A stretch of 64,000 nt of DNA from Takakia lepidozioides (taxonomy: Eukaryota > Plantae > Bryophyta), in the NCBI GenBank assembly GCA_030704615.1, contig CM060731.1:51646001-51710000 (forward strand), given 5' to 3'. The notes under the pieces are model-generated. The model saw only the letters and a program-made list of their open reading frames with translations. It ran no database searches and was not told where the DNA came from. Shown here piece by piece: positions 37,634-63,453 of the stretch; within the stretch, counting starts at the first letter, position 1, and each line of letters begins with the position of its first letter. The position numbers were made by a program, and so were the translations under genes.

Positions 37634-40258
37634 GTCGTTCAAAACTGCTCCTATTCAAGGCTATTATCTGGTCTGTGCGAGACTGTGGCTGGATCTTTAG
37701 CTGCTCAGCTGAGGTTTTTACAGAGAAGTCCAAGATCACCAGACTCCAGGCACAAGCGCTCAAATAATGCTCTTTGGATTGAGGGTTGGTCGAATCCTCC
37801 TTGGCTAAAAGCAGCTCTAGCTTCCTTGATACAAGGTCGAGCACAATCTGGCGCTTTGACAACGCACTGTAAGGCAGGACAAGTAGAACAGGCATTGAAC
37901 ATTTTGAACAAACAAGTCATTGTGGCAGACTCCAATACTTATGTCTGTCTCTTGCGGGAGTGCATCCAAACTGAGAACCTTGAAATGGGAAAGCAGGTGC
38001 ATGCCTGCATTATCAAAAGTGGAAATGACACTAACATCTTTCTACTCAACACCCTTGTCAACATGTATGCCAAGTGCGGGAGCATAGTGGATGCACGCTT
38101 TGTGTTTGAAAACATGCCTCAACGAAACGTGTTTACGTGGACTATAATGATGGCAGGCTATACTGAGCATGGCTGTGCTAGGGAGGCTTTTGAGACCTAT
38201 CAACAAATGAGACAGGAAGGGGTGGTGCCCAGCAATGTCACATTCATCTGTGTGCTGAATGCATGTGCCAGCCTAGGAATCCTGGAAAAGGGCAAAGAGA
38301 TTCATGCTGACATCATCAAAGCTGGAATTGCACCAGACATCATTCTTGAGACTGCCCTTGTCGATATGTATGTCAAATGTGGGAACATGAATGATGCGCA
38401 GCAACTGTTTGACAATATGGATCAACGAAATGTGGTGTCATGGAATGTGATGATCACAGGATATGCTCAGCATGGGTATGCTAGGAAGGCTTTCAACACC
38501 TATGAGCAGATGATGTGGGAAGGAGTTTTGCCCAACAAAGTCACGTTCATTTGTGTGCTCAATGCATGTTCCAGCCTGGTGGAAGAGGGCAAAATGGTCC
38601 ATGCCGACATCATCAGAGCTGGGATTGTGTCATGTATTAAATTGGAGAATGCCCTTGTCGACATGTATGCCAAATGCGGCAACATGAAGGATGCACGTCA
38701 AGTGCTTGACAATATGGCTCAACGAAACACGGTTTCATGGAATACCATGATTGCAGGATATGCTCAGCATGGTTGTGGCATGGCGGCCATTAAGATCTAT
38801 GAGCAAATGATACAGGAAGGGGTACTGCCAGACAAGGTTACATTCATTTGTGTACTCAATGCATGTGCCAACATAGCAGCCTTGAAAAAGGGCAAAGAGG
38901 TCCATGCCGACATCATCAAAGCTGAAATTGCAACACATATTAATTTGGAGAATGCCCTTGTTAACATGTATGCAAAATGCGGGAACATAAGAGAAGCGCA
39001 GCAAGTGTTTGCCAACATGGCTGAGCGAGATGTGGTCTCATGGAACGCAATGATTGCAGGGTATGCCCTGCATGGGTGTGGTATGGAGGCTTTCGAGATC
39101 TATGAGCAAATGATACGGGAAGGGTTGACCCCCAACAGGGTAACCTTCATTTGCACTCTCAATGCCTGTGCCAGCCTGGCAGCGCTGGAAAGGGGCAGAG
39201 AGATCCATGCTGACATCATCAAAGCTGGAGTTGCGTCATACGTTAATTTGGAGAATGCCCTTGTTAACATGTATGCCAAATGTGGGAGTGTGGAGGATGC
39301 ACGGCTAGTGTTTGACAACATGGCTCAGAGAGATATGGTCTCATGGAGTGCGATGATCGCAGGATATGTGCAGCATGGATGTGGTAGGGAAGCTCTGCGA
39401 CTATTTGGACAAATGGATAAGGAAGGTTTGAAACCAAACCGTATTACGTTTATATGTGTTCTCTCTGCATGCAGCCATGTTGGCTTAGTGGATGAAGGCC
39501 ATCACTACTTTGGTTCCATGAGTCGAGATCATGGCCTCACCCCTACAGTGGAACATTTTGGCTGCATGGTGGACCTTCTCGGCCGAGCAGGGCAATTGAA
39601 TGAGGCAGAGGACTTCATCAACACAATGCCAATTGAACCAGATGCTTCAGTGTTGGGAGCCTTGCTTGGCGCCTGCAGAATTCATGGCCAGGTGGAGGTG
39701 GCAGAACGTGCTGCAAAATGCCTTCTCCGGCGGGATCCACATTATGCTGCTACTTACGTGCTTCTATCAAACATCTATGCTGCTGCTGGCAGGTGGGACG
39801 ATGCAGCGAAAGTGAGAAAAATGATGCAGGACAGATCTATTAGAAAGGACCCAGGGCGAAGTTGCATTGAGGTGGACAACTGGTTTCATTCATTTGTTAT
39901 AGAGGACAAATTGCATCCACAAATTGAGGAAATCCATGCAGAGCTGAGGAGATTGTCTTGTCAGTTGAAGGAGGCTGGGTATGTGCCTGACACACGCTTT
40001 GTATTGTATGATGTGGAGGAGGAGCAGAAGGAATCTTCTCTTTGTTACCACAGTGAGAAGCTGGCCATTGCTTTTGGGCTGATCAACACACCCCCAGGGA
40101 CAACTATCCGAGTCATAAAAAACCTTCGGGTATGTGGTGACTGCCACACCGCCACCAAGTTCATCTCAAAGATTGTTGGACGGACAGTTATTGTAAGAGA
40201 TGGGAACCGCTTTCACCACTTTCAAGAAGGGGTCTGTTCTTGTGGAGACTACTGGTGA
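37634..40258 (+). CDS. PLS-E-DYW pentatricopeptide repeat protein (putative C-to-U RNA editing factor)
   Basis: Open frame from the acceptor AG at 37632-37633; a likely micro-exon ATGGTGGGACAACAG (MVGQQ, 37443-37457) would supply the start. P-L-S triplets, E1/E2, PG box, HSEKLA, CGDCH, terminal CGDYW. Confidence 0.96.
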   Translation, partial: VVQNCSYSRLLSGLCETVAGSLAAQLRFLQRSPRSPDSRHKRSNNALWIEGWSNPPWLKAALASLIQGRAQSGALTTHCKAGQVEQALNILNKQVIVADSNTYVCLLRECIQTENLEMGKQVHACIIKSGNDTNIFLLNTLVNMYAKCGSIVDARFVFENMPQRNVFTWTIMMAGYTEHGCAREAFETYQQMRQEGVVPSNVTFICVLNACASLGILEKGKEIHADIIKAGIAPDIILETALVDMYVKCGNMNDAQQLFDNMDQRNVVSWNVMITGYAQHGYARKAFNTYEQMMWEGVLPNKVTFICVLNACSSLVEEGKMVHADIIRAGIVSCIKLENALVDMYAKCGNMKDARQVLDNMAQRNTVSWNTMIAGYAQHGCGMAAIKIYEQMIQEGVLPDKVTFICVLNACANIAALKKGKEVHADIIKAEIATHINLENALVNMYAKCGNIREAQQVFANMAERDVVSWNAMIAGYALHGCGMEAFEIYEQMIREGLTPNRVTFICTLNACASLAALERGREIHADIIKAGVASYVNLENALVNMYAKCGSVEDARLVFDNMAQRDMVSWSAMIAGYVQHGCGREALRLFGQMDKEGLKPNRITFICVLSACSHVGLVDEGHHYFGSMSRDHGLTPTVEHFGCMVDLLGRAGQLNEAEDFINTMPIEPDASVLGALLGACRIHGQVEVAERAAKCLLRRDPHYAATYVLLSNIYAAAGRWDDAAKVRKMMQDRSIRKDPGRSCIEVDNWFHSFVIEDKLHPQIEEIHAELRRLSCQLKEAGYVPDTRFVLYDVEEEQKESSLCYHSEKLAIAFGLINTPPGTTIRVIKNLRVCGDCHTATKFISKIVGRTVIVRDGNRFHHFQEGVCSCGDYW

Positions 40259-42789: not shown

Positions 42790-43030
42790 ATGTGGTTTTT
42801 GTGATGCATTTCCTGGTGTACATTCCCCCCTTAGGATACATTGAATTTTTCCCTGCAAGAGTATGCTTTTTTTCGATGTACATTTCCCCTTTCCTTGTGG
42901 AGTTTTCCCCACAAAAGTATGTAATTTTTCGTGTGATTTTTTTAATGCTTTTCGCGTTCCCTGCAAGAGTATGTTTTTTACACATTTCCCCTTTCTTTGT
43001 GTAATTTTCTTGGCAAGAGTATGGTTTTTT
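42790..43030. repeat. Degenerate ~55-bp minisatellite
   Basis: Recurrent TTCCCTGCAAGAGTATG and TACATTTCCCCTTTC motifs. Confidence 0.7.
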
Positions 43031-43119
43031 CCTTGTTGTGCGCATACGTATCGCTACACAACTACATCGTTGTCCAAACTACACCACACATATATGGACA
43101 ATAAAGTAGTCTGCCACAA

Positions 43120-43373
43120 TGATTGAAAACTAGATTCACACTGTTGACACAGAAACACTCAATACAACACAATCACTCATTAAACCCCAAGCTATGGGGA
43201 CTCCACCCCACAACATCATATTCTCCCTTCATAAGCACACCTAGATTCTAAGCAGTGAAGGAGCTCGGTCGTACAGGCTCAACTCGAGAGAGATGAGCCG
43301 CACGACTGACGCTCTCGTGAAGATAACATGGTTCAGGTGTCAAGCTAAACTTGACACCTGACTTAACACTTGA
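43120..43373. repeat. ~250-bp direct repeat of 53471-53745 (LTR-derived fragment)
   Basis: Near-identical from TGATTGAAAACTAGATTCACACTGTTGACAC to CCTGACTTAACACTTGA, with one short internal indel. Confidence 0.9.
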
Positions 43374-43712
43374 ACTAAATCCAAGTGTTAAATACAAATA
43401 ACTAGCTTTATTCTAGTTAGTTTTCACACTGTGTTTATTTAACTTGGCCATAATCGCCCCCCTAGCTGGTGGATAGGTCCCTCTAACTCCAGATAACTAC
43501 AAGATGTAATAGCCACAGCCGTACTAAGTCCTCTATCACTGTCCCTATTGTACTCAAACTCTATAGACCAAGAGGCCAGATACAAGAGTAGCCCCATCGT
43601 TAGTCGTCGTCTTGCAATCTGTGAACTTGAGCTAGGATCTCGTGTGTTCAAGGTCTCCTAGTAGCTTGGCCTTGCATTTCTTGTTAGTCTTCCATGGTTG
43701 TATCCACTCCCA

Positions 43713-43860
43713 CTATCCAATGCAATGCGGACATAACCAATCCCCATCATGAACCATCTCAAGAGGTGGAGTCAAGCATCCCATATGCCAACCTCTAGAG
43801 CATCGATCACACACCAGCATGGTGGCCGCCCCTCTAGCAGACCCACACAACATGCACCTC
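43713..43860 (-). other. PHD zinc finger at the integrase C-terminus
   Basis: CMLC...MLVCDRCSRGWHMGCLTPPLEMVHDGDWLCPHC is a complete C4HC3 pattern. Confidence 0.92.
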
Positions 43861-46800
43861 AAACTTGTAGGTACCACTGCCAGGTTTGGGTCAATCCTAC
43901 CATCGACATTCGGAAAGTGACATGGCGCACAATTACGCACATGGTCCTTCCAAGTTATGCCATCCCGACCCTCCAAGATCAAGACGCCTGAGGGCAAGAC
44001 CTCTTGAACCCTCAAAATAACACGTCCTGCAGTCACATCCAAGGTCGTAGGAGCAGTCTGCTGCAGAGAGACATAGTCACCAGGGTTGAATTTCCAAACC
44101 CCAGGACGATAGCCCCCACCACGTATGGTACCATACCTCAACGTATCACGATGTTGTGCCATTGGCAGGTTCTCGAAAGTCATGGTCATGACTTTCTTGA
44201 ACAACTCTGCATGCTGATCACATGCACGTGCCCACACGTCCGGATCATCAAGGTTAAGACTGTAACAGCTTCTCTACAATCCGGCTCTCGGCCAAAGAGA
44301 AGAAAGTATGGTGAGAAGGAGGCTTGTTTGCTGAACCTGTAGCCCATGGCTAACCAGGGTAACTGAAGTCCCAATCTCCTAGTGTCCCTTCTACAAGCCA
44401 TACTTGCGCAAACCCCTTTTACTACTGTCTGAACAACTCTCTCTGTCCAAGCCATCGTGCTCAGGATAATCCCGAAGAAGTGTGGCGTTTTCTACAACGG
44501 CTCTCTTTCACACCAACTCACTGGAAACCCCCTAAAGAACGCTCTCGCTCTCAATCCTTGGTCATAGAGTACCCAACTGGAGCACCGAATCGGCTAAGTA
44601 CACAATCCAAGAATGCATACGCAGCTCCCTCACTAGCCTTATCAGGCAATGGAACCAACTCAATCCACTTGGAAAAGTGCTCCACCATCACCAATACGTA
44701 CTTGTTGTGGCGCATGGTCAATGGCAACGGCCCTGCGAAGTCAAGACTCTACCTGTAGCCCAATCCCATGATCGGAAGAGGGTGCAATTGTGGTGTAGGG
44801 GCGTTGAATGAAGCACACACCCTGTCACACACCATGCACCTAGCCACAAATTGTTGCACCTCTGTGTGCATACCACGCCACCAATATTGCCCCTGCAATA
44901 GACTATGAGTGCGTCGCACCCCAAAATGCCTCAACTCCTCATGGGCATGCCGCACTAACCGTGCCCGCTGTGTTGGGTGAGGCACAATCCTCACTCGACC
45001 ATCCTCCCACACTCGAAGCAGGTGTGTCCCCTCCCACTTGAATCTCTTGGCTCGTTGTAGGATCCGATCCTTCTCCTTGGCAGTCACAGTGGCTGTCGTG
45101 TCTCCAGTGCGGAGGTAGTCCAACACAGCTGAATCCTCATGTATATCTTTAGCGTCACCTTGCTCATTGCTGACCTCAGGGTCCTCCGACACTTGATCTA
45201 CAGTCATCCCTGTTGCAGGTCCAAGCTGGCCTTCTGTTGCCAAGATACACAGAAATGCAGATGCATGCCATCCGGGCACCATCTCCTCGTCCGTCTCACC
45301 ATGCCACCGAGCTCCAGTATCATTCTGCTGGCTCGTGCATGGATTGTGACTCAACCCATCTGCATCCCGATTGACCAAACCCGATCGATGCACAACCTGA
45401 AAGTTATACTCTTGAAGGATAAGTGCCCACCGTGCAAGCTTCCCCGTAAGCTTGTCTGACTCCATCAACCACTTAAGTGGTTGGTGATCCGTGACAAGGG
45501 TGAAGAGATTGTCGTATAGATAGCACCTGAAGTGTGCCACGGCCCACACTGCAGCTAAGCATTTTCCCTCATATGAGCTATACTTAGTCTCTGCAGCATT
45601 GTTCGAGCGGCTAGCATAAGCCACTACGAACTTTCTTCCCTCGTCATCCACATGTGTGAGCACCGCTCCAAGCCCCAGCATGCTCCAATCTGTATGCAGC
45701 TGAAAAGGACGCCCCTTGATAGGTCGTCTCAAGATGGGCGCCGAGGTCAACCTCGCCTTGAGCTCTTGAAAAGCTTGTTCTTGCTCATCTTCCCACTGCC
45801 ACTCCCGGTCCATCTTGGTCAGTTTGGTTAGAGCCTTTGCAATGACACTAAATCCCTTAACAAACCGTCTATAATAGTTTGCTAACCCCATGAAAGCTCG
45901 AACTCGGCTCACATCCGTGGGGCGTGGAATCTGTGCAATGGACTCTACCTTAGTCTGTTGTACCCCCAATCCTCCAAGATATATCATGTGACCCAGATAC
46001 TCAATTTGGTTGTGGAAAAACTTGCACTTCCCCGGATGTAACTTCAATCCGTGCGCCCTCAAGCGCTCAAATATCACCTGAAGGTGTTTCTCATGCTCCT
46101 CCACCGTCCACTAAAATGATGATGTCATCTATGTAGCACCGACAAACTCCACCCCTGCTAGAATCCTGTCCAAACTCTCTGAAACTCTGCCGAAGCGTTC
46201 TTAAGCCCAAATGGTAAGAACCGCCACTGGTATAGGCAATCCTTCCCGTGCTCATTGATCCCCCAGAATGTCGTCTTCTGCTTATCCGCCTCCTTGATCG
46301 GCAACTGGTGATATCCGGATCGTAAATCCAAAGTGCTGAAGACCTTGGCATGCCCAATGGCATCAAAGATCTCCTTTGGTGTCGGCATGGCATACCTATC
46401 GGACTTGGTCTGACAATTTACAGGCCGGTAATCACCGCACATACGTCTCTCCGTCCAATTGCCATAGACATCCTTCTTGGCTGGCATCACTGTGGCTGAA
46501 GCATACTCTCCTCCAGATAGCTCTACCAAACCAGCCTAGCTCCCAAAGGTCCTGAGTTTCATCTTAATCAAGGACCTCTTCATGTCACTATATCTATAGG
46601 GTCTCCGAAAGATTGGCGTATCAGTAGCCAATTCAATGCGAATCTCTTGACCCTTCAGTGCTCCTAAGTCCTTCAAACTGAAGGCAAAGCAGTTCCTGTA
46701 AGCCCTCAAGAACCGCCGTATACGTCGTCTTTATCCTCCGGTGACTATAGGTCCAACAACAGGCTCCCAGTTGTCCTCCGTGACTGCAACCTTGAGTCCT

Positions 46801-48100: not shown

Positions 48101-51100
48101 ACTGCCACACAAGAGGGTGTGGTGTCCAATGACGATAACTGAGGTGGTCTTGGTGCAATCACCGCACTCTCCTCCTCTCCTGACGGTACAAAGGCCTCTA
48201 CCTAGGCTTGTTGCATTCGTCTATCAGCAGCCTGCTGCAAATGCTTGCTCGTACCCCACAATGGAGTGAGAGCAACCATGGCAGACAACTCCGTTGTACC
48301 ATGCATGTCATCCTACTCTGATGGAGGTGGCACATCCTCTGCATGGGCATTGCCCTCCAGCAACTCTCCATGCCAACTAACTGCAGCTGTGAAGGCTGCT
48401 AGTGTTGGCATCTTGCCCCGCTGGGCAGCAGCAACACCCCCAATGAATGTCACAGGGAGCTGTACACAACGACCATCCCCTGACTGCCATCCAGGCTTGT
48501 AGGATGCTAACTCCTCCCAAAAATCCAGGGTGAAGCCTATGGGATATAACACTGCCCCACCAACGAGGACATTGTAAGAGACCGCATCTTCACAATGGCC
48601 TTGGCTCACATCACTGAGCCATCTATAGGATGATCCGGCTGTAGTCTAATGGCCAACTCACGCCGTGTCATGCCCCGAGCCTGCTCTGATCCTCCCAGAG
48701 ATGTCTGTATCTGGAAAGGACAAGGCTTCATGTCCGCCTCCATGAGGCCCAAACCTGCAATAGCAGCTCTGCCCAACATCAGTGACTGAGCTCCCGAGTC
48801 CAACAAGACCCGCAGTGGCCGGTACCTTTTGCCTGCCGGTCCACTCAAAGAGAAAATGTCATCCTGGTTGTCTAACAAGACAACTCCAGGTTTCACCATG
48901 ATGCGCTGAAAGGCTGGCTTAGCTGGCAGCTCTGTCAACCTGACAGCTGCAGCTTGTCATGGCGCAGCCGTGGCAGTCTTGACCCTCAAATCCGAGGATC
49001 CCTCTGCCACTACACCTATCACTAACTCCGCAGAAGATGAAATGACATCCCCACTCTCGCAGAGTGTTGCTGCTAGTCTAAACACTGCAACTGGTCTTAC
49101 CCCATACGTCGCGATCATGGTTGCCGAGAATAGTGGGGCCTGACACACAGAGGTGGTTGCCCCCAACAACACACAGGCTGCACTAGCCTTGGTAGCAGGT
49201 GTCAGTGCTGCACGTGTAGCTCTCCCCAACGGCACAATAACGGCCTCTGTATCTGTCGGGCGATGTCATCGACACTGTCTCTCTCCCAAGATGAATGATT
49301 GAGGCAACCTAGCCTGACGGCTTGCCTCCCCACGCTGTGGATCTAACTCCACCTCTGCACCTCGTGGCTCAGGAACTCGTGCTGCTCCTCGAGTGACGGC
49401 TGCAGCAGAATCCACCTGTATAAGTGGCCATTCAAGTGCTGCCCCGCACATAAATCCCATGCCTCCCATGTCTCCTCCGTCAGGATGACGCTGCTGAGGA
49501 GGAACAGGAGGTGGACCCTCAGGTCTTGGAGCTGGTACCACCCGAGCCGTGGCCATGGCAGCAAGCCGTTGCTCTAGCTGCTGAAGCCGGTTAGCCAAGC
49601 CTTGGTCAATGCCCTGACCTCCACGTCCTTGGCCATACTGTGCTTGCCCTCGTCCTGCACCTTGTGCCTGACCACCTCGTCCTCTCTGAGGTGCTCCACT
49701 TTGCCCTCGGCCACCATTGTTCCATTGGAACTAGCCTCGCCGCAACTCAGGGTGCAAGTCATAACATTGGGCATCGTCATGCCCATACTTGCCACAATGC
49801 CCACACTGCAACTATGCAGGCTGTGCTTGTGCCGGCCTTTTGCCACTCTCTGGGCAATCTTTCTTGACATGAGGTCCTCCACATGTCCAACATATCACCC
49901 CTGGTTGCTGTTGGGTTGCAAAAGAAGCTACTGGCCTCTGCACTTGAGGTCCCCTGTAAGCTCCATGGAATTTGGGTTGGGCAACCTTGCCCCCCTGACC
50001 ACGCTGTTGGGCAGTCCCTTGTACCTGTTGGCTGGCAGCTGCGCCTCGTACAGGCATGTCCTTGCCAAATCCAATGGTAACAACTCGCTCCTCCACCATG
50101 TTGAGCTCAATCCGCTCAGCCAGCAAAAACACATCTGCTAATGTGGGTTGGGCCGCTTGTAACAGGGTTGCATCCCGCACCCTTCTCCTGAGCTCCTTGT
50201 CCAAAATTCCATACCAGAACTGGACAACATGAGCTTCAGTAACCCCTTGGGTCACACTTATCAAGCGCCTCATACGAGTGTAGGCCTCTCGCAAGCTCTC
50301 ACTGGATTTGCGCTAGAAGTCTTGCAAACTTCGCAGCTTCTCTGTCCGTACGCCTTGGTAGTTCGTCCGCAACTCCTGGAAGAACTCCACCACCGGGTTG
50401 AATCTAGGCACATGTGTTGTAGTCGTGGCAGGAGGAGTAGTAGCACCTTTTGAACTGGTACCACCTGCAGAAGTACCGACACTACTTGTTCCACTACTAG
50501 TGCTGGCAGTGGGAGATATTGGTGCTGATGCAACTACTGGTCGCGTCATGCCTCGAGTAATGGAGACGTAGTCAGGTGACCAATACATCCTCCACTCCTC
50601 AATCTCTGCTTCATGTCCTCGCCTGAACTCGTGGTAATCGTCCATAGGCGGGCCTTCCAAATGCTGGAACAGTCCCTTCCACGCCATGAATGGGGTGAAC
50701 AGCTGTGGATTGCGCATCTGCTGCAAATCACACCAGCTGTCAAACTCCTGGATAACGTCATCCAGCTCGATTGTGCCCACAGCTCCAGAGTACCTACGAG
50801 GCCCCTGGTAGCTCCATACATCTCCTCCATGGCGTCCCACAACTATGGCGAAGGAAACTGCACACCTGTTGATGAAGCCTCCGAGTCTGTGTCAGACTCT
50901 GCACTAGTTGAGGGTGGAGGTGAAGATGGTCTGAACCGAATACCTCGTCTTGTGAACCCACTTTCACTGCTACTGCCTGTAACCGTACTCCCCTCAAAAC
51001 CCTTGGGTAACTCCGTGATGACACTCACAACCCGCACCTCTCTCACGTGATCCTATAAGGCTCTAGTACTAATTCTAATAGTGACACAGGTGAGCACTTG

Positions 51101-53271
51101 TTGCGGATTAAGGGTCATATCCCAGTGGCTAAGGGCACCTGCACCTGCATCCACCGCAAGAACTCCTATGGTTGGCTGGTCATCAACCCAGTCTCACCAT
51201 AGAAGAAACACTGGTGGTCTTGTTGGTCATCACTCTAGCCTCACCACCAACAGCATACTCTAGGATTGACCGGTGATCAAATCCGGCCTAATCCCTATGA
51301 AAGCAAGCGCCCACACAAAACCAACATGGCGCACAGTCAAGCATGCAGGTGTTGGGGGGGATCCAAACACAAGAAATCAAAACATCAACACCCCCACACC
51401 AAAATCCATCTGCAGTGCTGATCCTGCAGAATATCCCAGCCCAAAAACCCCGGACTGACTAGCCTCTACCAAGAGAGGCTTTGGCAACTACAAGTACAAA
51501 GTAATGAAAATAGTAAAGAGAAGGAGGGGAAGAATAGAGGCCCGACCAAGCAAGATCTAATCCTGATCTATGCTATCAACTGCTAGACTTCTCTCAAAGT
51601 GCCTCGCTCTGCATGATAGTAAGGTGTAGGAGGTATATCTATGTCCAGAAACCTGCCACTAACCTTATCCCAAGCTACAGTAGCTCGCTCTAACCAACCC
51701 TCCTCCTCTCTCTGCCAGGTAGAGACAAAGCAATACTCCCCTATCTCCCGCTCACTGAATACTAAAAAAAATAAACGTAGGGTCTGACAGTCTCTCAACT
51801 CGAAAGCTTTGAGACGGTTGCGGGTGTCCTCGTTGCGAATGACTGCATTTCCTTCAAGCAGAACAAACTTTTCATTGCTAATGAACCCCCGCTCGTGGTT
51901 GCCTTGTGCAGAGCGTGTCCGGCTGCAACCATGTCTGATTGCACAAACTTGTGTAGCTCCTGCTCCTCTGCTCCAGTACACTACGGCCTTGTGGCTGAAC
52001 ACCTTGGTGACTGACTTACTGACCAAGGCAGTGGATTGGAAGTGTGCATGTGAACGGTTTCCGAAGTCTGATGGAGGTGGTGATGATAAAGAGAATCACA
52101 TAATTCAGGGGGAACATGAGAGCAAGCCTGTGGTGGTGCGTCTGTAACCACAAATGAATCCTGGGAATTATAGGCCGTTGCCAGGGAGTATGTGAGAACT
52201 ACATGAACATGTTCGGAACCCGTAGATAACCTGGGAACAGCTTTTAATGGCGAGAACGTTTTGGTGTCAAAAAAAAAAAAAAAAAAACCCTTTTGATCTA
52301 ATTTAAATGATTTAGAGCCTAATTGGTCATATCTTTGTCAAATGGACGCCGTTTGACTTAGTTTTTGGGGGGATAGTTATAGAAAGAGGAAATCTACCTA
52401 TCTAGTTTTTAGGACTCTGCTAAAAATCTATGGAAATTTTTGAGTGTGAGTGAGAGTGTGAGGGTGCTATGAAAGATCCACAATTCTGTTTCTAGAACCT
52501 GTTGTGGTCTACATGAGAGACAAATCTGTGGATGTCCTCCTTGTATGGCTGGGGGAAATGAGGACATAATTGAAGGGCATGTCTCTTCTCTTAGCCTGTG
52601 CACACAAGGGGACAAGATTTATGTTTCTCAAGGAACTCAGATTGATTGGAGTGGAGAGCAGTTGGACAAGTTGATTGCATACTGGGAGTCAGGCATTAGC
52701 AATAGACAACAAACTGTTGTAGTTGGTGTTGAGGGCCTCAATATTGCTTTGGACAGTCAGAACTCTGTTGGAGCAAGCAGTTCTGCAGCTGTAGGTGAAA
52801 TACCAAAGTGGGTAGAAGCTAGGCTTGGAACACAGCCAATACAATTCAGCACTGGTTTGCACAACTCGCAGTTGTCTCCGCCACTCTGCCCCCTTAGAAT
52901 CCCACTAGGAAGTAGTGATATTGGGTCTAAGTTGGGAAGCAAGTTCACATGTGTATTGCACCAGCGCCGGGAGACTGCCCACCTTCACAGCAGACTGTAT
53001 GCCCTTACGCCATGCCTGCCACCACCCTTGCCTACTGGAGCACACCCCTTTGGAAGACAGCTTTGTTTGCACTCAAGAGCGTCATCTATGTCCGGGTAAA
53101 CGGTTCTTAGACCCCATCAGTCTCAAGAGCTATGTCGTGAAGAATAGCAGAAATAGCTGCATGGACACGTCTCCATCTAGCTGCAGCTGCCAGGTTGACA
53201 GATCACATGAACAAAAATGCCAGAGCCTACACAATGAAGAAAGTTGAACAAAGTCCGCACTGGAACTCTAC

Positions 53272-53766
53272 TGTTGATGATGCACTTGACATCTTTCTAA
53301 CTAAAAATTACCTGAACACATATAATCACTTCTCTGTCTCCAACCAGCTTGTCATAAACATAATCTACAAACCACCATAATTTTCTTCTCTCACTTTCAA
53401 AACAAAAACCACAAGTGCTAAAACTAAACTCACCTCTGGCACTCACAGATGCAAGCTCATTTCTCTCGAGTGATTGAAAACTAGATTCACACTGTTGACA
53501 CAGAAACACTCAATACAACACAATCACTCATTAAAACTACGAGTCGAGCCAGGGGCACCCCAAGCTATGGGGAATTCACCCCACAACATCCTATTCTCCC
53601 TTCATAAGCACACTTAGATTCTAAGCAGTGAAGGAGCTCGGTCGTGCAGGCTCAACTCGAGAGAGATGAGCCGCACGACTGACGCTCTCGTGAAGATAAG
53701 ATGGTTCAGGTGTCAAACTAAACTTGACACCTGACTTAACACTTGAGCTCCTTGAAAATCTGTCAC
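53272..53766 (-). mobile_element. Putative 3' LTR (~495 bp) of an element lying to its right
   Basis: On the minus strand a PPT-like GGGGGGTGGT (53767-53778) is directly followed by TGTGACA...; candidate end ...TCATCAACA at 53272; contains the segment repeated at 43120-43373. Confidence 0.55.
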
Positions 53767-53965
53767 AACCACCCCCCCAATCACTGAGTTCAGGCATTCT
53801 AGGATCCAACACTGAAACAAAATACTAAAACACTGAAACAGAAATAAAAAGTACAACAACACCAGTTTACCTACTGACTATGACTGAGTATCGCTTCTTT
53901 CACAATCCTTTCATGAAAACCATCAAACCGTTTTTCTTGGGAACCCTCGAATTTTTTCGTGTATT

Positions 53966-54865
53966 TGGACTTCGGAATGCTGGAATTCTGCACCTCTAGT
54001 ATCATATCATCTTCAGTACCTCATATACTAAAAATTATTAAAAACTTATACTAGTGTAAAAAATAGAAGCATCTACAAACTTAGAATGTTTGGCATGGTT
54101 TGGTTCAATGCTGAAACCTTCACTTCTAGCAGCAGGAGCAACACCCTTTTCAAATACACTGGACTTCACAAATGCTAGAAATCTGCACTAGTACAAATTC
54201 ATTTTTAGTATACAAAAGATTACTAGGAAGATTATTAAAAACTTGTACTAGTCTACAAAATAGAAGCCTCTACAAACTTACAATATCTGGCATGGTTGGA
54301 TCAATGTTGAAACCTTCACTTCTAGCGGTAGGAGCTACAACCTTCTCAAATACACTGGACTTCACAATGTTGGAAATCTACACAAGTACAAACTCATCTT
54401 TAGCACCTCATAATACGAAAGATTACTAGGAAGATATTAAAAACTTATACTAGTCTACAAAATAGAAGCCTCTGCAAACTTACAATGTCTAGCATGGTTG
54501 GATCAATGCTGAAACCTTCACTTCCAGCGGCATGAGCAACATCCTTCTCAAGTACACTGGACTTCACAATGTTGGAAATCTACACAAGTACAAATTCACC
54601 TTTAGCGCCTCATAATACGAAATTTCCCTTCAACAAAAAAAAAAATACGAAAGATTACAAAGAAGATTATTAAAAACTTATACTAGTCTACAAAACAGAA
54701 TCCTCTACAAACTTACAAGGTCTGGCATGGTTGGTACAATGTTGAAATCTTTACTTCCAGCGGCAGGAGCAACACCCTTCTCAAATACACTGGACTTCAC
54801 GATGCTGGAAATCTGCACACATACAAAATCATCTTTAGCGCCTCATAATACTAAAGATGATTAAG
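53966..54865 (-). repeat. Tandem repeat, ~4.4 copies of ~195-230 bp; each unit is a 96-nt exon-like segment plus a GT-AG intron
   Basis: TGGACTTC anchors at 53966, 54160, 54356, 54558 and 54791. Minus-strand AG|96 nt|GTAAGT at 54812-54717, 54579-54484 and 54377-54282. Confidence 0.9.
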
Positions 54866-55929
54866 AACTTATTGCTTGTGGCACAAATTGGTAAAACTGG
54901 ATAAAACTTCTGTCCAATTTCAAGCCAATTAAGTTTCTAATTCGTACACATGTGGAATGGCGGAGGAGCTAAACCTAAGATTTGTGAAAAATAGCACTTC
55001 AGGTATGGTCTATTTGTTCCCCAACCTGTTCTTGCTTACCTTCTGGCTCAGGATGTGGTAGAAACTTATACAAACTTGGTTAAAGATTCATCTTAAATAT
55101 TCTGCATCCATGCAGTAGAACTGGTTGAAGTGGTCTTATGGTTTCAATACCTGTGCATTAGTGGTGGTTTTGAGCATCTGTACCAACCATGCACATTTGT
55201 GTCTTGTTGCTTTGCTATATGAATGTCTAGATCTTCAAGTTCTGTTGTTGGACCTGATTCGATCATATATGTTTCTCCATCTCCTACTATCAATGTTCCA
55301 GATAGTTCCTCTTTAAAAGTGAAGGAGATTGACTCAGATGTAGAGGATGACACCGAGCTTGTAGAGCATTGCGATGACCGTTGGCCTATGTGTGCAGAAT
55401 TGAAATCTAAAACCAAGTGCATTCCTATGTATCCAAGCGTCTCCTATGTCGAGGCCTATCTAAGCCCAACTGCAATCTTATATATATCCAAGTATATCTC
55501 CCATGTAGAGGCCAAATGTCCACTGTCATCTAACCCCAAGTGCAATCTCTTATGTATCCAAGAACGTCTCCCACGTCAAGGCCCAGTTTTTTTTTTTAAT
55601 GAATTTATTGAGTAGTAATATATCCAATAATTATTGATATATCTCTTGTTGAGGCTCCAATCATTGTGTAGGCCATTTTGTTATTTTTCACGAATTTCCA
55701 GTGACCAAAATTCCAAATCTCCCACATGAAGGGCCAGTCATTGCTCCAGGAAAGCCCACTTTGCTATATTCACGAATTTCCAGCGACCGAAAATACTTAA
55801 ATTCCATATCTCCCACACCGCAGGTCCCAAAACCATGATTCCAAGTGGGTGCACCCCTCCTCATGGAGGGCTTTCCAAGGGCACCAAGCGCGGGGAGTGG
55901 GCCCGCAGTTTGGGAGATCTCAACTATGC

Positions 55930-56070
55930 TACAAAACAAAACAAACCTAAAATTGGCTCTCTTGCTTTGGCAAACGATAAGAGGAAGGTGAGAGTAAGGG
56001 GCATGACTCAGCACAGTCGGACCACTCGGAGCCTTGACACGGTGTAAGGTCCTCTTACCACATTTTTTCC
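55930..56070. repeat. ~140-bp repeat, copy 1 of 3 (upstream of purH)
   Basis: GGCTCTCTTGCTTTGGC...GGGGCAT.ACT.AGCAC...GAGCCTTGACACGGTGTAAGGTCCT, shared with 58350-58500 and 58600-58735. Confidence 0.85.
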
Positions 56071-56339
56071 ATTAACTAAACATGTTGCAAAGTCTCTCTG
56101 CAAGAGAGCCAACAAACAAACAACCTGGCTCCATATAAGATTGATTGTCATACTCTCCCTCATGGCACACCGTAAGATGTGAGTGGATTTGCGTCATGTG
56201 GTTGCAAAGGGCAAATTACTGATTCCTCCACTACGAAGCTTACATACCTGCCGTCCGTATGATTATTGAGTTTTTTCTTGAGGGAAACAATATAACCCTT
56301 CGAAGGTATTGAGAAGTTAGGGTTGTGCGGTGCTGGGCG

Positions 56340-58190
56340 ATGGCCATGGCTTCATCGGCGCTCCCTTCTGCTGGATCGCTCTCCCTGCAATCCGCATTCC
56401 AATCCCTACGTGTTGAGGAATTTTTCCCCCGCCATCTCCAGCTTTTTGTCAGCGGTGGGGGATTGTTTGGTAAGCAGCAGTTGGCGTTGAAAGCTGTGAG
56501 TTTTCGAGCTATGTCAGCTGCAGCTGGTGTATCCCCCGGAGCTGCAACTGCTACCTCAGTATCAGCGGATGTCTCACTGACAGGACCCAAGCAAGCCCTA
56601 CTGTCCCTGTCAGACAAGCAGGATGTGGATGTTCTTGCACAAGGCCTTACTGATCTGGGCTTCAAGCTGGTGTCAACGGGTGGCACTGCATCAGCATTGG
56701 AGGACGCAGGGTTTGCTGTCACGCGAGTTGAAGAACTGACATCCTTCCCAGAGATGTTGGATGGGCGAGTCAAGACCTTGCACCCAGCAGTGCATGGAGG
56801 CATACTTGCAAGACGAGATCTGCAACCCCACATGGATGCACTCCAGCAACATGGAATTGGGGCAATTGACGTGGTGGTAGTGAATCTCTACCCTTTCTAC
56901 AGCACAGTTACGACTCGAGAAGGAGCATCTTTCGACCATGCGTTGGAAAACATTGACATTGGAGGTCCTGCAATGATTAGGGCTGCTGCAAAGAATCACA
57001 GGGATGTGTTCGTGGTAGTGGACCCAGCCGATTATGCAGCATTGTTAACAAACCTGCAGGGTAAGGGTGACACTGAAAGTTTTCGAAGGAAGCTCGCATG
57101 GAAGGCCTTTCAGCATGTGGCTTCCTATGACTCAGCTGTTGCTGAGTGGTTTTGGGAGCAAACTAGTAGCAAAGATTCAACAGGCAAACAGGAGTTTCCT
57201 CCGAGCTTGACGGTGCCTCTCATTTTAAAGTCATGCTTAAGGTATGGTGAGAACCCACACCAACGAGCAGCCTTCTATGAGGATAGGTCACTGGCTGGAG
57301 TTGGCGGAGGAGGCATTGCCACAGCTGTGCAGCACCATGGCAAGGAAATGTCATATAACAATTATCTGGACGCTGATGCTGCTTGGAACTGCGTATGTGA
57401 GTTCCGTAATCCCACGTGTGTGGTGGTGAAGCACACCAACCCTTGTGGGGTCGCCTCCATTGGGCCAAACACTGATATCCTGGAAGCCTACCGCCTTGCA
57501 GTCAGGGCTGATCCTGTCAGTGCGTTTGGGGGCATTGTCGCCTTCAATGTGGAGGTGGACGAGACCCTTGCCCGTGAGATACGGGAATTTCGTAGCCCAA
57601 CAGACGGTGAGACCCGCATGTTCTATGAGATTGTTATTGCCCCCAAGTACACAGAAAAGGGGCTTGAGTTGCTCAAGGGAAAATCCAAGACATTGCGCAT
57701 TTTGGAAGCCCAAGAAAGCACAAGAGGGAGGTGCTCACTGCGGCAGGTTGGTGGCGGATGGTTGCTACAGGAGGCTGATGATCTCACTCCAGATGATCTC
57801 GGTTTTGAGGTAGTTAGCATGGGGGTCCCTTCTCTGGAGCAAGTGGATGATGCACGGTTTGCATGGCTGTGTGTCAAGCACGTGAAAAGCAATGCAATTG
57901 TTGTGGCCAAGGATAACAGAATGCTGGGGATGGGGAGCGGTCAACCTAACCGAGTGAAGAGTTTGCAAATAGCACTTGAAAAGGCGGGTGAGGCAGCCAA
58001 GGGTGCTGCTCTTGCTAGTGATGCTTTCTTTCCATTTGCCTGGAATGATGCTGTTGAGGAGGCCTGCAAGGCCGGGGTGAAGGTGATAGCACAACCAGGA
58101 GGCAGCATGCGGGATCAGGATGCTATTGATTGCTGCAATAAGTATGGCGTTGCTATGCTCCTCACTGGCGTTCGTCATTTCCGACATTGA
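56340..58190 (+). CDS. purH: Bifunctional AICAR transformylase/IMP cyclohydrolase, organelle-targeted, intronless
   Basis: ALLSLSDK, STGGTA, FPEMLDGRVKTLHPAVHGGIL, ENIDIGGP, LRYGENPHQ, KHTNPCG, KHVKSNAIV, ASDAFFPF, TGVRHFRH; Ser/Ala-rich N-terminal presequence. Confidence 0.97.
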   Translation: MAMASSALPSAGSLSLQSAFQSLRVEEFFPRHLQLFVSGGGLFGKQQLALKAVSFRAMSAAAGVSPGAATATSVSADVSLTGPKQALLSLSDKQDVDVLAQGLTDLGFKLVSTGGTASALEDAGFAVTRVEELTSFPEMLDGRVKTLHPAVHGGILARRDLQPHMDALQQHGIGAIDVVVVNLYPFYSTVTTREGASFDHALENIDIGGPAMIRAAAKNHRDVFVVVDPADYAALLTNLQGKGDTESFRRKLAWKAFQHVASYDSAVAEWFWEQTSSKDSTGKQEFPPSLTVPLILKSCLRYGENPHQRAAFYEDRSLAGVGGGGIATAVQHHGKEMSYNNYLDADAAWNCVCEFRNPTCVVVKHTNPCGVASIGPNTDILEAYRLAVRADPVSAFGGIVAFNVEVDETLAREIREFRSPTDGETRMFYEIVIAPKYTEKGLELLKGKSKTLRILEAQESTRGRCSLRQVGGGWLLQEADDLTPDDLGFEVVSMGVPSLEQVDDARFAWLCVKHVKSNAIVVAKDNRMLGMGSGQPNRVKSLQIALEKAGEAAKGAALASDAFFPFAWNDAVEEACKAGVKVIAQPGGSMRDQDAIDCCNKYGVAMLLTGVRHFRH

Positions 58191-58349: not shown

Positions 58350-58735
58350 AATAAACAAGCCTCAAACGGCAATAGGCTCTCTTGCTTTGGCAATGTGACA
58401 CTAAAAGTAAAGGGGCATAACTCAGCACAACACACCACTCCGAGCCTTGACACCACTGGGAGCCTTGAAACAATGTAAGGTTTTGACCACATTTTCTCCC
58501 TCGACTTCAACATGATTTTTTCTTCTTGAAAGAAAAAGGGAAACACATGGGAGCGACCACATGATGCATACTACTATGTTTCCCTTCCTTTACAACTACG
58601 AAAACAAGCCTAAAACGGCGATGGGCTCTCTTGCTTTGGCTAAACATAAGAGGAAGGTGAGAGTCAGGGGCATTACTGAGCACAACGCGCCAATAGGAGC
58701 CTTGACACGGTGTAAGGTCCTTTGACCACTCCCAC
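58350..58735. repeat. ~140-bp repeat, copies 2 and 3 (downstream of purH)
   Basis: Same orientation and core motifs as 55930-56070. Confidence 0.85.
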
Positions 58736-59581
58736 ATATACATATATATTCCCGCAGTTGGGATGCAAGAGCAATGAGCATTGGTGAGGCGGCATGAGTG
58801 TGGCATGCGGGGCCTGTGCGTTCTACCGTCCAAGCGCCTCAGCACCGCTCATCGCTCTGCCGCAAGCCACAGAGTGATCGAGGGTCTGAGTGAGATTCTG
58901 GTGTGGCCCACCGGCCCAGTTGCACAGCTTTCTCACACGCACCGAACGTTATCACCAACAATCGGTCGGTAGGTATTCTACGCAGCGTGCAGGCATCGCA
59001 GCTCCGCATCGCCCTCGCTTCCTCCCGAGCAGGTAACGGGTAGGATGCATGTAGTAAGCATGCATGTGCATTGAATCTACAGTGTACATGAATGTTTGTG
59101 AGAGGTGCTAGGAGCCAGGGATTGGGCATCCGCTGGGAGGCTACCAACGTGTGAGGCTAGAAAGTGTTGGCACCTTTACTGCAAGATGGGACTCAATACA
59201 GAATACGTATGGACCCAACTGAAATGCGGATGAGAGTCCCTGGCCTGAGACTCAGACAGTCAAGCACTTAGTGCGAGATTGAATTAAAATCCCGTGCATA
59301 ATTGGTCGTCTAGGGTGTGATTGATCAAAGTAAGTGCTGTGTGGCAGTGGATGAATCCCGGTGCTGGTGGACTCGGCACTACCCACTTATTACTATCTGG
59401 GGAGTGGAGAGGAAGGAAGGAAGGGAAGGGAAGGGAAGTGATAAGAAGAGACATTGTTTTTGTGGACTTGGATTTTACAAGCCAGCCTGCCTGGAGGCTG
59501 GCGGCAGTGGAGCCCGACAATCTGTTTGTGGTTCTTCTGGTTATAGTGCGGTGAGAGTGAGAGATTGCAGGTGGGTGGGTG

Positions 59582-62500
59582 ATGGAGAGAGCAAGGCAGA
59601 TGGCGGTGAGGCGTCTGCTGCAGCATGCGCTGCGGAGGCCAGCCTCGGCAGCCCTGTTCCATTCCAGGACGTATCCGAGTACCTCACAGGCTGCCCCACT
59701 AGCTGCTCTCCAGGATTTCGGTGCTTCTGTTTTCGGGACAAGGAGGACATGGAGTGCAGTTTCCGAATTGCCTGCAGCAGTTCGTGGCATTTCGGTGGAG
59801 TCACTCAAGCCCAGTGACACTTTCCAAAGGCGCCATAACAGCCCAACACCAGCTGAGCAGAGCGTGATGGCAGAGACTTGTGGGTTCTCGAGCCTTGATG
59901 AGCTGATTGATGCTACTGTGCCAAAGGCGATTCGCAGGTCGGGTATGGAGCTTGGAAAATACAGCGAGGGGTTGACTGAGAGTCAGTTGCTGGTACATTT
60001 CAAGGCTCTGGCATCCAAGAACAAGGTACTGAAGTCGTACATCGGTATGGGCTATTACGACACGCATGTTCCTCCCGTCATTCTTAGAAACATTATGGAA
60101 AATCCCGGGTGGTACACTCAGTACACTCCTTACCAGGCAGAAATTGCTCAAGGACGGCTTGAGTCTCTTCTCAACTTCCAAACGATGATTACAGACCTCA
60201 CATCGATGCCAATGTCGAATGCCTCCCTTCTTGATGAAGCCACTGCTGCTGCGGAGGCGATGACCATGTGTAGTAATATTGCCCGTGGCAGGAAGAGGAC
60301 ATTCTTGGTGGCTGACAATTGTCATCCTCAAACAATCGATGTGTGTAAGACTCGTGCAGACGGGCTTGGAATGAATGTCGTTGTTTCTAACTACAAGAAG
60401 TTCGATTATAGTCGCAAGGATGTCTGTGGAGTTCTGGTGCAGTACCCTGCCACAGATGGTCAAGTGATTGATTATTCTGATTTCATTAAGATGGCGCATT
60501 CTCAAGGTGTGAAAGTGGTAATGGCCACTGATTTACTGGCTCTCACTGTTTTAAAACCACCCGGAGAGCTTGGAGCAGACATGGTAGTCGGATCTGCCCA
60601 GCGATTTGGAGTGCCAATGGGTTTTGGAGGGCCGCATGCCGCATTCCTCGCAACATCCCAGGAATACAAGCGGCTAATGCCGGGCCGCATCATAGGTGTG
60701 AGTGTGGATGCAACTGGAAAGCCTGCTTTGCGGATGGCCATGCAGACCCGTGAGCAACACATTCGTCGCGATAAGGCAACCAGTAATATTTGCACTGCAC
60801 AGGTTGACAATTCTTCCTGGTGTCATGACTGTCTTTTGGTCGAAGTAATCGTTCTGTGGAGACTATCCATTTGGGCGAAATCACTTTCCATATCTTGCTA
60901 ATTTTCAGGATGTGATGTTAGCCAGGATTTAGTACTGGCCAAGTGTATGTACCGTAAACTTTGCTTGTGCTGAGAAATGGTCTTAGGCCTTTGTTGATGG
61001 TAAGAGGGCTCACCTGTTGGGTTTCAGGCTTTGCTGGCAAACATGGCAGCAATGTATGCAGTCTATCATGGCCCAGCAGGACTGAAGATCATAGCGGATC
61101 GTGTACATGGGCTGGCAGCAGTATTTTCAGCTGGCGTGGCAAAGCTGGGCATCACTGTTGGTTCATCACCATTCTTTGACACTGTGAAGATAACAGTGGG
61201 CGAAGGAGAAGCAGAGAAGTACTCGAAGGCAGCAAGTGAGAAGGGATCTAATGTGCGAGTGCTAGATCAGAATACAGTGAGTGCCCCTTACTTCTTGTAT
61301 AAACCATATGTAAGCTCGAGGGACATAAAGATCTGTGCGCATGGATCTTGAAAACACTTTGGGTTTAGATGTTTTGCTTTGTGAATGGTGATGTCGAGTG
61401 CTTGTGTGCCTTTCACTTCGCAGAAAGTCTCTATGTTTTCACCTAGCCCCTCTTCATGTGTATTATTTTCTTTCAAAATGGATGAGATCCTCTGTGTTTG
61501 AACTACAGCAGAATGGATGCCACATACACTGTGGGACAACAATTAGAGATAGACTCAATGGAGTTCTTGTTAATTGTATGACTCTCATAGGTGCAAAGAC
61601 TGTAGGACCTGTACAGGCACACTCTGTCAGGACTCCTTAGGTGGCATGTGACACCTTAGGTGTCATGATGAAGTATAAGAGTTTCCTCAGCTCTCATTTT
61701 TATCATGATGGTATATATATGTGAGCCACTGACATTAATTTTTCATGTCATGCAGATCACTGTTTCTTTTGATGAGACGACAACTCTGGCAGATGTAGAT
61801 AAGCTGTTTCAGATATTTGCAGGAAGCAAGACAGTAAGTGAAACTTAAATCGCATGTTTGGAAGTTTGGTTCTATTTCTTGGTGTTTGCTGCATCTGGCT
61901 GTACATAATGTGGCAGTACGTGGACTTGTTTGTTTGACAAAGGCATATAATATGGTGAAATGACTTCCGGTAAAATTTCAGGTTGACTTCACTGCCGAGC
62001 ACCTTGCCTCAGAGGTTCAGCCTTCCATTCCAAGCACTCTGGAGCGTGACACTCCCTACCTCACTCATCCAGTCTTTAATATGTGAGTAGTGCTGCTGCC
62101 TTTTGATTGCTGGGTGCACCTATCTATGGTAGGAGGAGGGTGGGCCTGACATGGAATGTATAGTCAAGATGGTTGGGAGTGGGTGCATGTTGTGAGAGGT
62201 TCAGCCCAAGCATGTACATTTCTAAGAATACCTTCTTAAATATCAGGTATCACTCAGAGCATGAGCTGCTGCGCTATCTCCACAGACTGCAAGCAAGGGA
62301 TCTTTCTTTGTGCCACAGCATGATTCCGTTGGGCTCTTGCACCATGAAACTCAATGCTACCACAGAAATGATACCAGTCACATGGCCAGAACTTGCAAAT
62401 CTTCATCCATTTGCACCAGTGGACCAGACTCTTGGTTACCAGGTTCACATCTGCAGATACTTATGGTGCTGTAGACATCATGTCTTCCTCAAATTTCTTG

Positions 62501-63453
62501 TTGTGACAGAATAATGATAGGCATGATTTACATTTAGTGATGTCTGTTTATGGTAAATGTTCTGTCAGTGCCCATTTACCCCTTTTTCTCCTTACGTGGC
62601 AGGAAATGTTTCAAGAATTAGGCGAGCTGCTATGTGAGATCACTGGCTTTGACTCAATGTCGCTACAGCCCAATGCTGGTGCTGCTGGGGAATACGCAGG
62701 GCTTATGGTTATTCGGGCTTACCACCAGGTAGGCACACACCTTTCTTGCATGTTGGAAGTTGACAGTGATCTTTGACGTTTCTTTTTGAAGGAAGCCAAA
62801 TGGCGTCCGTAATGTATGCTTTGACACTGGACGTGATTGACATACATACCTTGCGACAGGCACGAGGCGACAATCATCGCAATGTCTGTATCATCCCAGT
62901 GTCTGCCCATGGTACCAATCCTGCCAGTGCCGCAATGTGTGGTATGAAGATTGTGACAATTGGTACTGATGAGCAAGGAAATGTCAACATTAGCGAGCTG
63001 AAACAAGCAGCCGAAACGCACAAAGACAATCTAGCTGCTCTTATGGTAAGTTGCTCCTGCTATGAGGTACATATATTGTTGGATAATTCATAATCTAGGT
63101 GCAAGAAACTGCATGTACACACACACGGTTGCATAGTTGCATGTACACATCCTGTAAGACAAAATTACACTAGTAGCTAGTGTTTTTTTAGGATACTGTG
63201 GACCCCTTGTCGCTATGTTAGTTGGCCAGACACAGTCCATACTTGGAAGAGGGCACAACGACCTATTGGTGTATGTACATGAAGTGCTTGATGGGGAATC
63301 TAGGTTTAATTTTCCTTGCCTTGTTCACTACGTTTACAGGTGACATATCCTTCGACACATGGTGTGTATGAGGATGGTATCGATGAAATTTGCAACATCA
63401 TACATGAGAATGGGGGCCAAGTCTATATGGATGGTGCGAATATGAATGCACAG
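59582..63453 (+). CDS. GLDP: Glycine decarboxylase P-protein, mitochondrial; 3' part beyond window. Exons 59582-60802, 61028-61276, 61756-61833, 61982-62082, 62247-62442, 62603-62728, 62860-63045, 63340-63453
   Basis: MERAR presequence; [80 protein letters not shown]; canonical GT-AG introns. Confidence 0.98.

What the first reader, a model, noticed from the sequence alone, without database searches (positions are those of the whole stretch)
53870..54865. A tandem 'satellite' whose unit is a symmetric 96-nt exon plus intron
Seen on the minus strand: three units have AG acceptor, exactly 96 nt open in phase 0, then GTAAGT. They encode ISSIVKSSVFEKGVAPAAGSKDFNIVPTMPDL, ISNIVKSSVLEKDVAHAAGSEGFSIDPTMLDI and ISNIVKSSVFEKVVAPTARSEGFNIDPTMPDI. 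A ~30-bp A-rich insertion falls in an intron. The fourth unit (from 54182) has a frameshift and a dead donor (CTAAGT); a fifth diverges into NSSIPKSKYTKK... Further exon-like pieces lie upstream (55144-55422) and downstream (53812-53621, running into the putative LTR). Inference: a spliced gene growing by exon-intron tandem duplication, possibly an accessory gene in a retroelement 3' region. It is invisible to the ORF track.
Basis: partly seen in the sequence, partly recalled or inferred. Interest (0 to 1): 0.7.

Follow-up and report, generated by a model that had tools for sequence, protein, structure and literature searches.

The report
Decaying exon-intron repeat in a moss
A 200-base piece of moss DNA that looks like one exon plus one intron was copied about four times in a row next to, but outside, a jumping gene; the copies have since changed as if unselected, so it is likely the decaying remnant of a gene and an ordinary, known kind of duplication.

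Summary
At 53966-54872 lie 4.4 copies of a ~202-bp unit. Units 1-3 read AG / 96 open nt / GTAAGT on the minus strand; unit 4 has two 1-nt insertions and a dead donor. The copies share one ancestor, so this anatomy is one event; chance gives it in 1-5% of such units. The 96-nt part also has coding-like periodicity in frame 0. The ancestral unit was therefore probably a real exon plus intron. Since duplication it has evolved neutrally: exons 17 changes/96 nt, introns 14/98, omega about 1.2 (95% interval 0.5-2.9). No protein relative was found, and no strongly spliced, start-bearing frame leads into exon 1. Splicing is untested: RNA contigs splice a neighbouring gene, but no joint in the array was among those listed. 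The retroelement reading fails: the array lies upstream of the Ty3/gypsy 5' LTR (self-priming site directly behind it), not between pol and the 3' LTR. The A-rich insert has a 7-bp target duplication, like a tiny retroposed tail. Verdict: TOUCH3-type intron multiplication, likely in a dead orphan gene. The scan noted such arrays before in fungi and protists.

The parts
53966..54872 (-). Tandem array, 4.4 copies of a ~202-bp unit, each one exon-like plus one intron-like segment
   Evidence: self-BLAST; TRF; alignment
54717..54812 (-). e1, 96-nt phase-0 exon-like segment (CAG / GTAAGT)
   Evidence: coding score 2.85
54580..54716 (-). i1, 137-nt GT-AG intron-like segment with the 30-nt insert
54616..54652 (+). 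Insert of 12 nt + A11 between two copies of a 7-bp direct repeat (54616-54622, 54646-54652); looks like a 5'-truncated retroposed tail with target-site duplication (inferred)
54484..54579 (-). e2, 96-nt phase-0 exon-like segment (TAG / GTAAGT)
   Evidence: coding score 5.62
54378..54483 (-). i2, 106-nt GT-AG intron-like segment
54282..54377 (-). e3, 96-nt phase-0 exon-like segment (TAG / GTAAGT)
   Evidence: coding score 0.52
54183..54281 (-). i3, 99-nt GT-AG intron-like segment
54085..54182 (-). e4, broken copy: 98 nt (two 1-nt insertions), followed by CTAAGT
53988..54084 (-). i4, 97 nt, no GT donor, CAG acceptor kept
53871..53987 (-). e5: first 22 nt homologous to the unit, rest unrelated; 38 codons then TAG, then a T-rich GT..AG stretch (53870-53812)
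   Evidence: non-coding score -4.4
55147..55443 (-). Upstream open frame (99 codons); non-coding-like, no relatives found, its start overlaps a dispersed repeat; link to the array not shown
53471..53749 (-). 5' LTR of the neighbouring Ty3/gypsy element (lacks the first ~80 nt of the 3' LTR); context, not part of the array
53455..53471 (-). Self-priming-type primer site behind the 5' LTR, complementary (16 of 17) to 53655-53671
   Evidence: (I11)
43120..43376 (-). Matching part of the 3' LTR (8 differences in 257 aligned nt); purine tract about 80 nt upstream of it

Best explanation
The array is four and a half head-to-tail copies of a 202-base block that likely was one 96-base phase-0 exon plus one intron of an orphan moss gene, and it has since decayed at an apparently neutral rate, so the gene is likely dead or unconstrained. 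Shown: the unit's register with the splice motifs, the open frame in units 1-3, equal divergence of exon and intron parts, and the position upstream of a gypsy 5' LTR. Inferred: the block was amplified by unequal crossing-over or slippage in a short burst (all exon pairs differ by 9-12 of 96 nt). Because the exon is 3n and phase 0-0, each copy left the frame intact. Unit 4 then lost donor and frame, a short retroposed tail entered intron 1, and a gypsy element inserted about 200 bases downstream later (LTR divergence 0.032 against 0.111 between units).
For: Exon+intron ancestry: the strict anatomy arises in 1-5% of controls. Exon GC is 0.41-0.46 against intron GC 0.28-0.32. Leave-one-gene-out coding scores of e1-e3 are 2.85, 5.62, 0.52 in frame 0 (true coding mean 3.37, n=115; open non-coding mean -3.07, n=1124). 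Neutral decay: 17 changes in 96 exon columns against 14 in 98 intron columns; by codon position 5, 8, 4; omega 1.24 (0.52-2.85); no stop in three copies has P=0.73 under neutrality. The best upstream donor (55039) has no ATG in its 16 open phase-0 codons, and the long upstream frame joins e1 only through a weak GTGCAT donor. Both flanks are repeat-laden. No real relative among 1.84 billion representatives: 4 of 4 hits are sums of short repeat matches, best single stretch 16.5 bits.
Against: All three disabling changes sit in unit 4 (P=0.06) and units 1-3 carry 0 exon against 3 intron indels, a weak hint that frame and splice sites were kept by selection. RNA-like run X7 has a little cover in the array (mean depth 0.68 and 0.21 in two bins) whose pieces were not listed. 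The reverse strand of the 96-nt parts scores nearly as coding-like (3.3, 2.0, 1.0), so that test is not strand-specific and partly reflects GC. The array's introns are shorter (3 of 4 below 131 nt) and poorer in GC than the 7 RNA-confirmed introns next door (131-479 nt, GC 0.38-0.47). Counts are small, and no spliced read was seen, so exon ancestry is inferred.
Confidence: 0.5

Rival explanations
1. A live, weakly expressed orphan gene (or spliced non-coding RNA) transcribed head-to-head with purH. Units 1-3 are spliced in, unit 4 is skipped or ends the frame, and the 32-residue repeat is a spacer free to change in sequence.
For: Units 1-3 are intact while all 3 disabling changes are in unit 4 (P=0.06). 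6 of 8 indels are in introns. Strong donor-like sites lie upstream (56247, 55039). Slight X7 cover. e3 to e5 would end in a stop.
Against: omega about 1.2 and exon divergence equal to intron divergence. The upstream frame and e5 score as non-coding. No strong-site path from an ATG. No relatives found.
Confidence: 0.22
2. A plain intergenic minisatellite whose ancestral unit happened to contain AG and GTAAGT 96 nt apart; copying made one coincidence look like four.
For: The copies are one event. A looser donor gives the anatomy in 623 of 2501 windows, and the strict one in 24 of 505 AT-rich windows. Evolution since duplication is neutral. No homolog was found.
Against: Strict anatomy plus the GC step occurs in 1 of 2501 windows. 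The single open minus-strand frame is phase 0 from the acceptor and scores like coding DNA.
Confidence: 0.21
3. The array belongs to a transposon: the 3' region of an older retroelement whose LTR was overwritten (a G-rich tract lies just before the 5' LTR), or a gene fragment captured by a DNA transposon.
For: A run of G followed by TGTGACA just upstream of the LTR resembles a purine tract plus LTR start (resemblance recalled). Dispersed repeats flank the region at 55380-56116. Tandem arrays are common between pol and 3' LTR in Retand elements (PMC11963269, abstract).
Against: For the element that is present the array is 5' of the 5' LTR. No second LTR-like repeat or transposon domain was found between array and purH. 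The same TTGTG also flanks the 3' LTR and fits a target duplication (about 5% by chance). Other LTR copies in X8 and X5 continue with the 3'-LTR sequence, not towards the array (table 7).
Confidence: 0.07

Closest known systems
Multiplication of a pre-existing intron by internal tandem duplication (Arabidopsis TOUCH3, Knowles & McLysaght 2006; Gao & Lynch 2009; both known here only through passages of PMC4974935)
   Same: The duplicated block holds a whole intron with the exon sequence around it, so exon and intron are propagated together and the frame survives.
   Different: TOUCH3 is described as a gene with two such duplications; here there are 4.4 copies, no known protein, no sign of amino-acid constraint and no demonstrated splicing.
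Intron gain by tandem duplication in the potato RdRp gene (PMC4974935, passages)
   Same: A plant tandem duplication inherits branch site, 3' site and the exon/intron GC contrast from a parental intron-exon structure.
   Different: There a new donor was recruited in a conserved gene with a clear phylogeny; here both sites are copied, and no parent gene or outgroup is available.
[quoted passage not shown]
   Same: Short tandem array next to a Ty3/gypsy element.
   Different: This array lies outside, upstream of the 5' LTR, and appears about 3.5 times older than the LTR pair; Retand was not found outside eudicots and monocots in that survey.

Membership tests
Internal tandem duplication of exon+intron (TOUCH3 type) | Repeat unit contains a whole intron and flanking exon sequence in register | tested here: met
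   AG and GT motifs at homologous positions in 3 of 4 full units
Internal tandem duplication of exon+intron (TOUCH3 type) | Frame preserved (3n exon, same phase both sides) | tested here: met
   units 1-3 are 96 nt and open in phase 0; unit 4 is not
Internal tandem duplication of exon+intron (TOUCH3 type) | The introns are removed from a transcript | tested here: inconclusive
   contigs only; none of the 15 listed joints (of 38) lies in the array, 23 not shown; 7 GT-AG joints of the neighbouring GDC-P gene seen in X6 and X7
Internal tandem duplication of exon+intron (TOUCH3 type) | Lies in a recognisable gene whose relatives carry one copy of the unit | tested here: inconclusive
   no relative found; no genome of this or a related moss held
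Constrained protein-coding exon repeat | Purifying selection (omega well below 1; exon slower than intron) | tested here: not met
   omega 1.24 (0.52-2.85); 17/96 against 14/98
Accessory gene or array in a retroelement pol-3'LTR region (Retand/Ogre type) | Position between pol and the 3' LTR | tested here: not met
   array is upstream of the LTR that carries the primer site
Accessory gene or array in a retroelement pol-3'LTR region (Retand/Ogre type) | Present in other copies of the element | tested here: inconclusive
   2 contigs each in X8 and X5 leave the window at 53746 and continue as the 3' LTR does; no genome-wide search possible
Satellite DNA | Long contiguous arrays of many monomers (PMC7004042, start of abstract) | tested here: not met
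   4.4 copies, 0.9 kb, about 11% divergence
NCS1 nucleobase permease pseudogene (considered for the frame starting at 53811) | Profile match over the transporter's length | tested here: inconclusive
   one 28-residue stretch across the putative insertion site, 6.8 bits, E 0.3 (0.9 with a 6-sequence profile) among 2896 pieces; post hoc; no other piece nearby

The most novel reading that the evidence does not exclude
A living, lineage-specific moss gene, head-to-head with purH, lengthens its protein by adding whole exon+intron cassettes: splice sites and frame are kept in units 1-3, the 32-residue repeat diversifies freely or under positive selection, and a dead cassette is skipped, a snapshot of birth and death of symmetric exons in a new gene.
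Probability: 0.12. Interest if true: 0.5.

Novelty: new member of a known kind. Interest (0 to 1): 0.2.

Why it matters
As a decayed duplicate it is a tidy but ordinary example of how symmetric exon+intron blocks multiply. It also warns that repeated splice motifs in a tandem array count as one observation. If it were alive it would be a young, measurable case of exon birth and death in an orphan bryophyte gene.

Tried and rejected
RNA: no RNA holder was listed for 53800-56300 (4 of 10 runs hold 0.71-0.76 of the words, one sample, possibly the source). Laid contigs: X6, X8 and X5 had zero depth in both bins of 53935-54708, while X5 and X8 covered the LTR bin (371 and 6.7). A part without cover is no evidence of silence or of single copy. 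A narrower lay on the array with a DNA run was not obtained, so X7's pieces and the copy number stay open. Homologs: Pfam none for e1-e3, e5, the upstream frame, the opposite-strand ORF 55223-55612 or ORF 53624-53824. Word-indexed search found 0 of 76 candidates for the upstream frame (longer proteins only) and 0 of 7 for the opposite-strand ORF. ESM Atlas gave no usable hit twice. The HMMER search of the e1-e3 profile gave 4 hits, all rejected as summed short repeats in unrelated proteins. Metagenome contigs: 0 of 333 pattern matches confirmed and 0 exact matches. Rfam 0 matches at E<=1 for 53300-56400. Older paralogy of the e5 tail, the 59-nt GT-AG stretch, 53811-53750 or the upstream DNA with the unit: not above shuffles (30-298 of 300 shuffles reach the score). 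NCS1 fragment idea: 6 of 2000 shuffles reach 6.8 bits, but it was spotted by eye and E is 0.3-0.9 for the window, so it is not accepted. Assembly artefact is unlikely because units differ by about 11%, though no reads were laid from the DNA holders. Gao & Lynch 2009 is not held. No supplements were consulted.

Full report
Setting. The window is nuclear DNA of a bryophyte, most likely a moss: its purH protein (56313-58187) has best hits in Sphagnum (78-84% identity), Calypogeia (77%) and Physcomitrium (81%). It carries PPR genes, a desaturase, purH and a glycine-cleavage P gene. No whole genome is held.

The observation. Self-comparison places a tandem array at 53966-54872, 4.4 copies of about 202 bp. 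On the minus strand units 1-3 have CAG or TAG, then exactly 96 nt, then GTAAGT, and only frame 0 is free of stops. Unit 4 is 98 nt with two single-base insertions and CTAAGT. The fifth copy shares only the acceptor region and 22 nt. The intron-like parts are 137, 106, 99 and 97 nt with GC 0.28-0.32, against 0.41-0.46 in the exon-like parts. The 30-nt insert in intron 1 reads, on the plus strand, 7-bp repeat, 12 nt, A11, same 7-bp repeat; its 18-nt core has no other match in the window at up to 3 mismatches. That is the layout of a 5'-truncated retroposed tail (inference from established LINE/SINE biology), though slippage is possible.

Is the splice anatomy more than chance? The copies descend from one unit, so it is one event. 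In 5000 dinucleotide shuffles of a unit, a GTAAGT donor with a YAG acceptor and an open 3n exon arose in 1.1% (phase 0) or 3.2% (any phase). In 2501 overlapping 202-nt windows of this DNA it arose 38 and 77 times, and once with a GC step of 0.10 or more. A looser donor gave 623, or 36 with the step. A three-periodic model trained on Pfam-confirmed genes of the window scores e1-e3 at 2.85, 5.62 and 0.52 (coding mean 3.37, n=115; open non-coding mean -3.07, n=1124). The opposite strand scores almost as high, so part of this is GC. Together these make a real exon+intron ancestor likely but not certain. Against it, three of the four introns are shorter, and all are more AT-rich, than the 7 RNA-confirmed introns of the neighbouring gene.

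Has it been under selection since? Among units 1-3 the exon parts carry 17 changes in 96 columns and the intron parts 14 in 98. Changes fall 5, 8, 4 on codon positions 1-3, and pairwise pN/pS is 2.04, 0.71, 1.0. With synonymous and intron sites as the neutral class omega is 1.24 (95% interval 0.52-2.85); 0.5 is rejected at P=0.019 and 0.3 at P=0.0004. Absence of stops is expected anyway (P=0.73). Six of 8 indels lie in introns, P=0.18, or 0.10 for three clean exons. The only hint of selection on frame is that the three disabling changes all sit in unit 4 (P=0.06).

Is there a gene around it? The strongest nearby donor (55039) offers 16 open phase-0 codons without ATG. The 99-codon upstream frame ends out of phase at its best donor (55150) and joins e1 only by a weak GTGCAT site; a different frame gives a 9-codon leader from an ATG at 55177. 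That upstream frame and e5 score as non-coding, and its acceptor lies in the last sub-repeat of a dispersed repeat. No protein relative was found by Pfam, word search, ESM Atlas or metagenome scans. The four hits of a full HMMER scan are sums of short matches in unrelated repeat proteins.

RNA. No RNA run was listed as a holder. Contigs of two RNA-like runs of the same species label (X6, X7) show all 7 GT-AG joints of the P-protein gene that were listed, and they cover purH, so the control works. None of the 15 listed joints lies in the array, but 23 were not shown. X7 has slight cover there (0.68 and 0.21) that could be spliced RNA, unspliced RNA or DNA. A closer lay was not obtained. Splicing is therefore open.

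The retroelement. A Ty3/gypsy element lies on the minus strand: gag-like ORFs 50891-49815 (no Pfam match), protease 48956-48609 (E 0.004), RT, RNase H, integrase zinc finger and a C-terminal PHD finger. Its repeats are 53749-53471 and 43376-43120, with 8 differences in 257 nt and one 22-nt gap. Directly behind 53471 lies a 17-nt stretch complementary at 16 positions to the LTR interior. This is a self-priming site as predicted for most moss and club-moss Tcn1 elements (PMC6317226, passages). A G-rich tract precedes the other repeat. So 53749-53471 is the 5' LTR and the array lies about 200 bp upstream, outside the element. The 5' LTR lacks about 80 nt present in the 3' LTR; other copies in X8 and X5 continue at 53746 as the 3' LTR does. 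TTGTG occurs 14 nt before the 5' LTR match and directly after the 3' LTR and may be the target duplication (about 5% by chance). Unit divergence (0.111) is 3.5 times LTR divergence (0.032), so the array is probably older, assuming equal rates and a non-recombinant LTR pair. Read across that site, the frame from the acceptor at 53811 resembles one helix of NCS1 permeases, but only at E 0.3-0.9 and post hoc; I do not accept it.

Mechanism and comparison. The best reading is multiplication of a pre-existing exon+intron block by tandem duplication, as described for Arabidopsis TOUCH3 and by Gao & Lynch (both seen only as cited in PMC4974935, passages), followed by neutral decay. It works like that class in structure. 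Membership as a spliced gene is untested, the constrained-exon test fails, and the retroelement-3'-region test fails. Earlier notes of this scan describe similar exon+intron arrays in fungi and a protist, some with RNA support; they gave me the TOUCH3 lead and are not evidence here. Papers seen: PMC6317226 and PMC4974935 as passages, PMC11963269 as abstract and outline, PMC7004042 as listing and start of abstract; others only as listings.

Verdict. Real feature, known kind, probably dead: interest 0.2. A live orphan gene growing by cassettes is not excluded (about 0.2 for any live spliced transcript, 0.12 for the strong form).

Noticed in passing
window 43716-44273 (-): The gypsy pol ends in a PHD finger (Pfam PF00628, E 1.2e-10) with no chromodomain hit, although the element has a Tcn1-like self-priming site. 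'PHD' occurs 0 times in the REXdb survey. Three paper searches gave 0, 1 (a duckweed paper, listing only) and 0 papers. Possibly more interesting than the finding; RT phylogeny not done.
   Followed up: partly
window 53706-53734 and the matching part of the 3' LTR: Near-perfect 29-nt palindrome close to the start of the shared LTR part; the 5' LTR is cut just upstream of it. An earlier scan note proposes that a moss element of this type opens at an internal palindrome. No split repeat was found here.
   Followed up: partly
window 50900-53470: Unusually long (2.6 kb) region between the 5' LTR and gag with ORFs of 208 codons (+, 52473-53096) and 170 codons (-, 51586-52095) without Pfam match, a T19 run near 52270, and an opposite-strand joint 52007/52839 in an X6 contig; may hold a nested repeat.
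   Followed up: no
window 55380-55890 and 55930-56116 / 58350-58730: Two dispersed repeat families with internal sub-repeats flank purH on both sides and are matched by many diverged contigs in RNA-like runs X6 and X7.
   Followed up: no
window 56313-58187 and 59561-63400: Intronless purH followed by a glycine-cleavage P-protein gene with 7 listed RNA-confirmed introns; two of their donors (GTTGAC, GTTCAC) are far from consensus.
   Followed up: partly
window 13550-16186, 19323-20888, 37634-40255, 12578-12963: Cluster of related PPR genes, two with E and DYW domains, 74-79% identical at DNA level, plus a fragment.
   Followed up: no
window 42849-43036: Two diverged 86-nt direct repeats just beyond the 3' LTR.
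   Followed up: no
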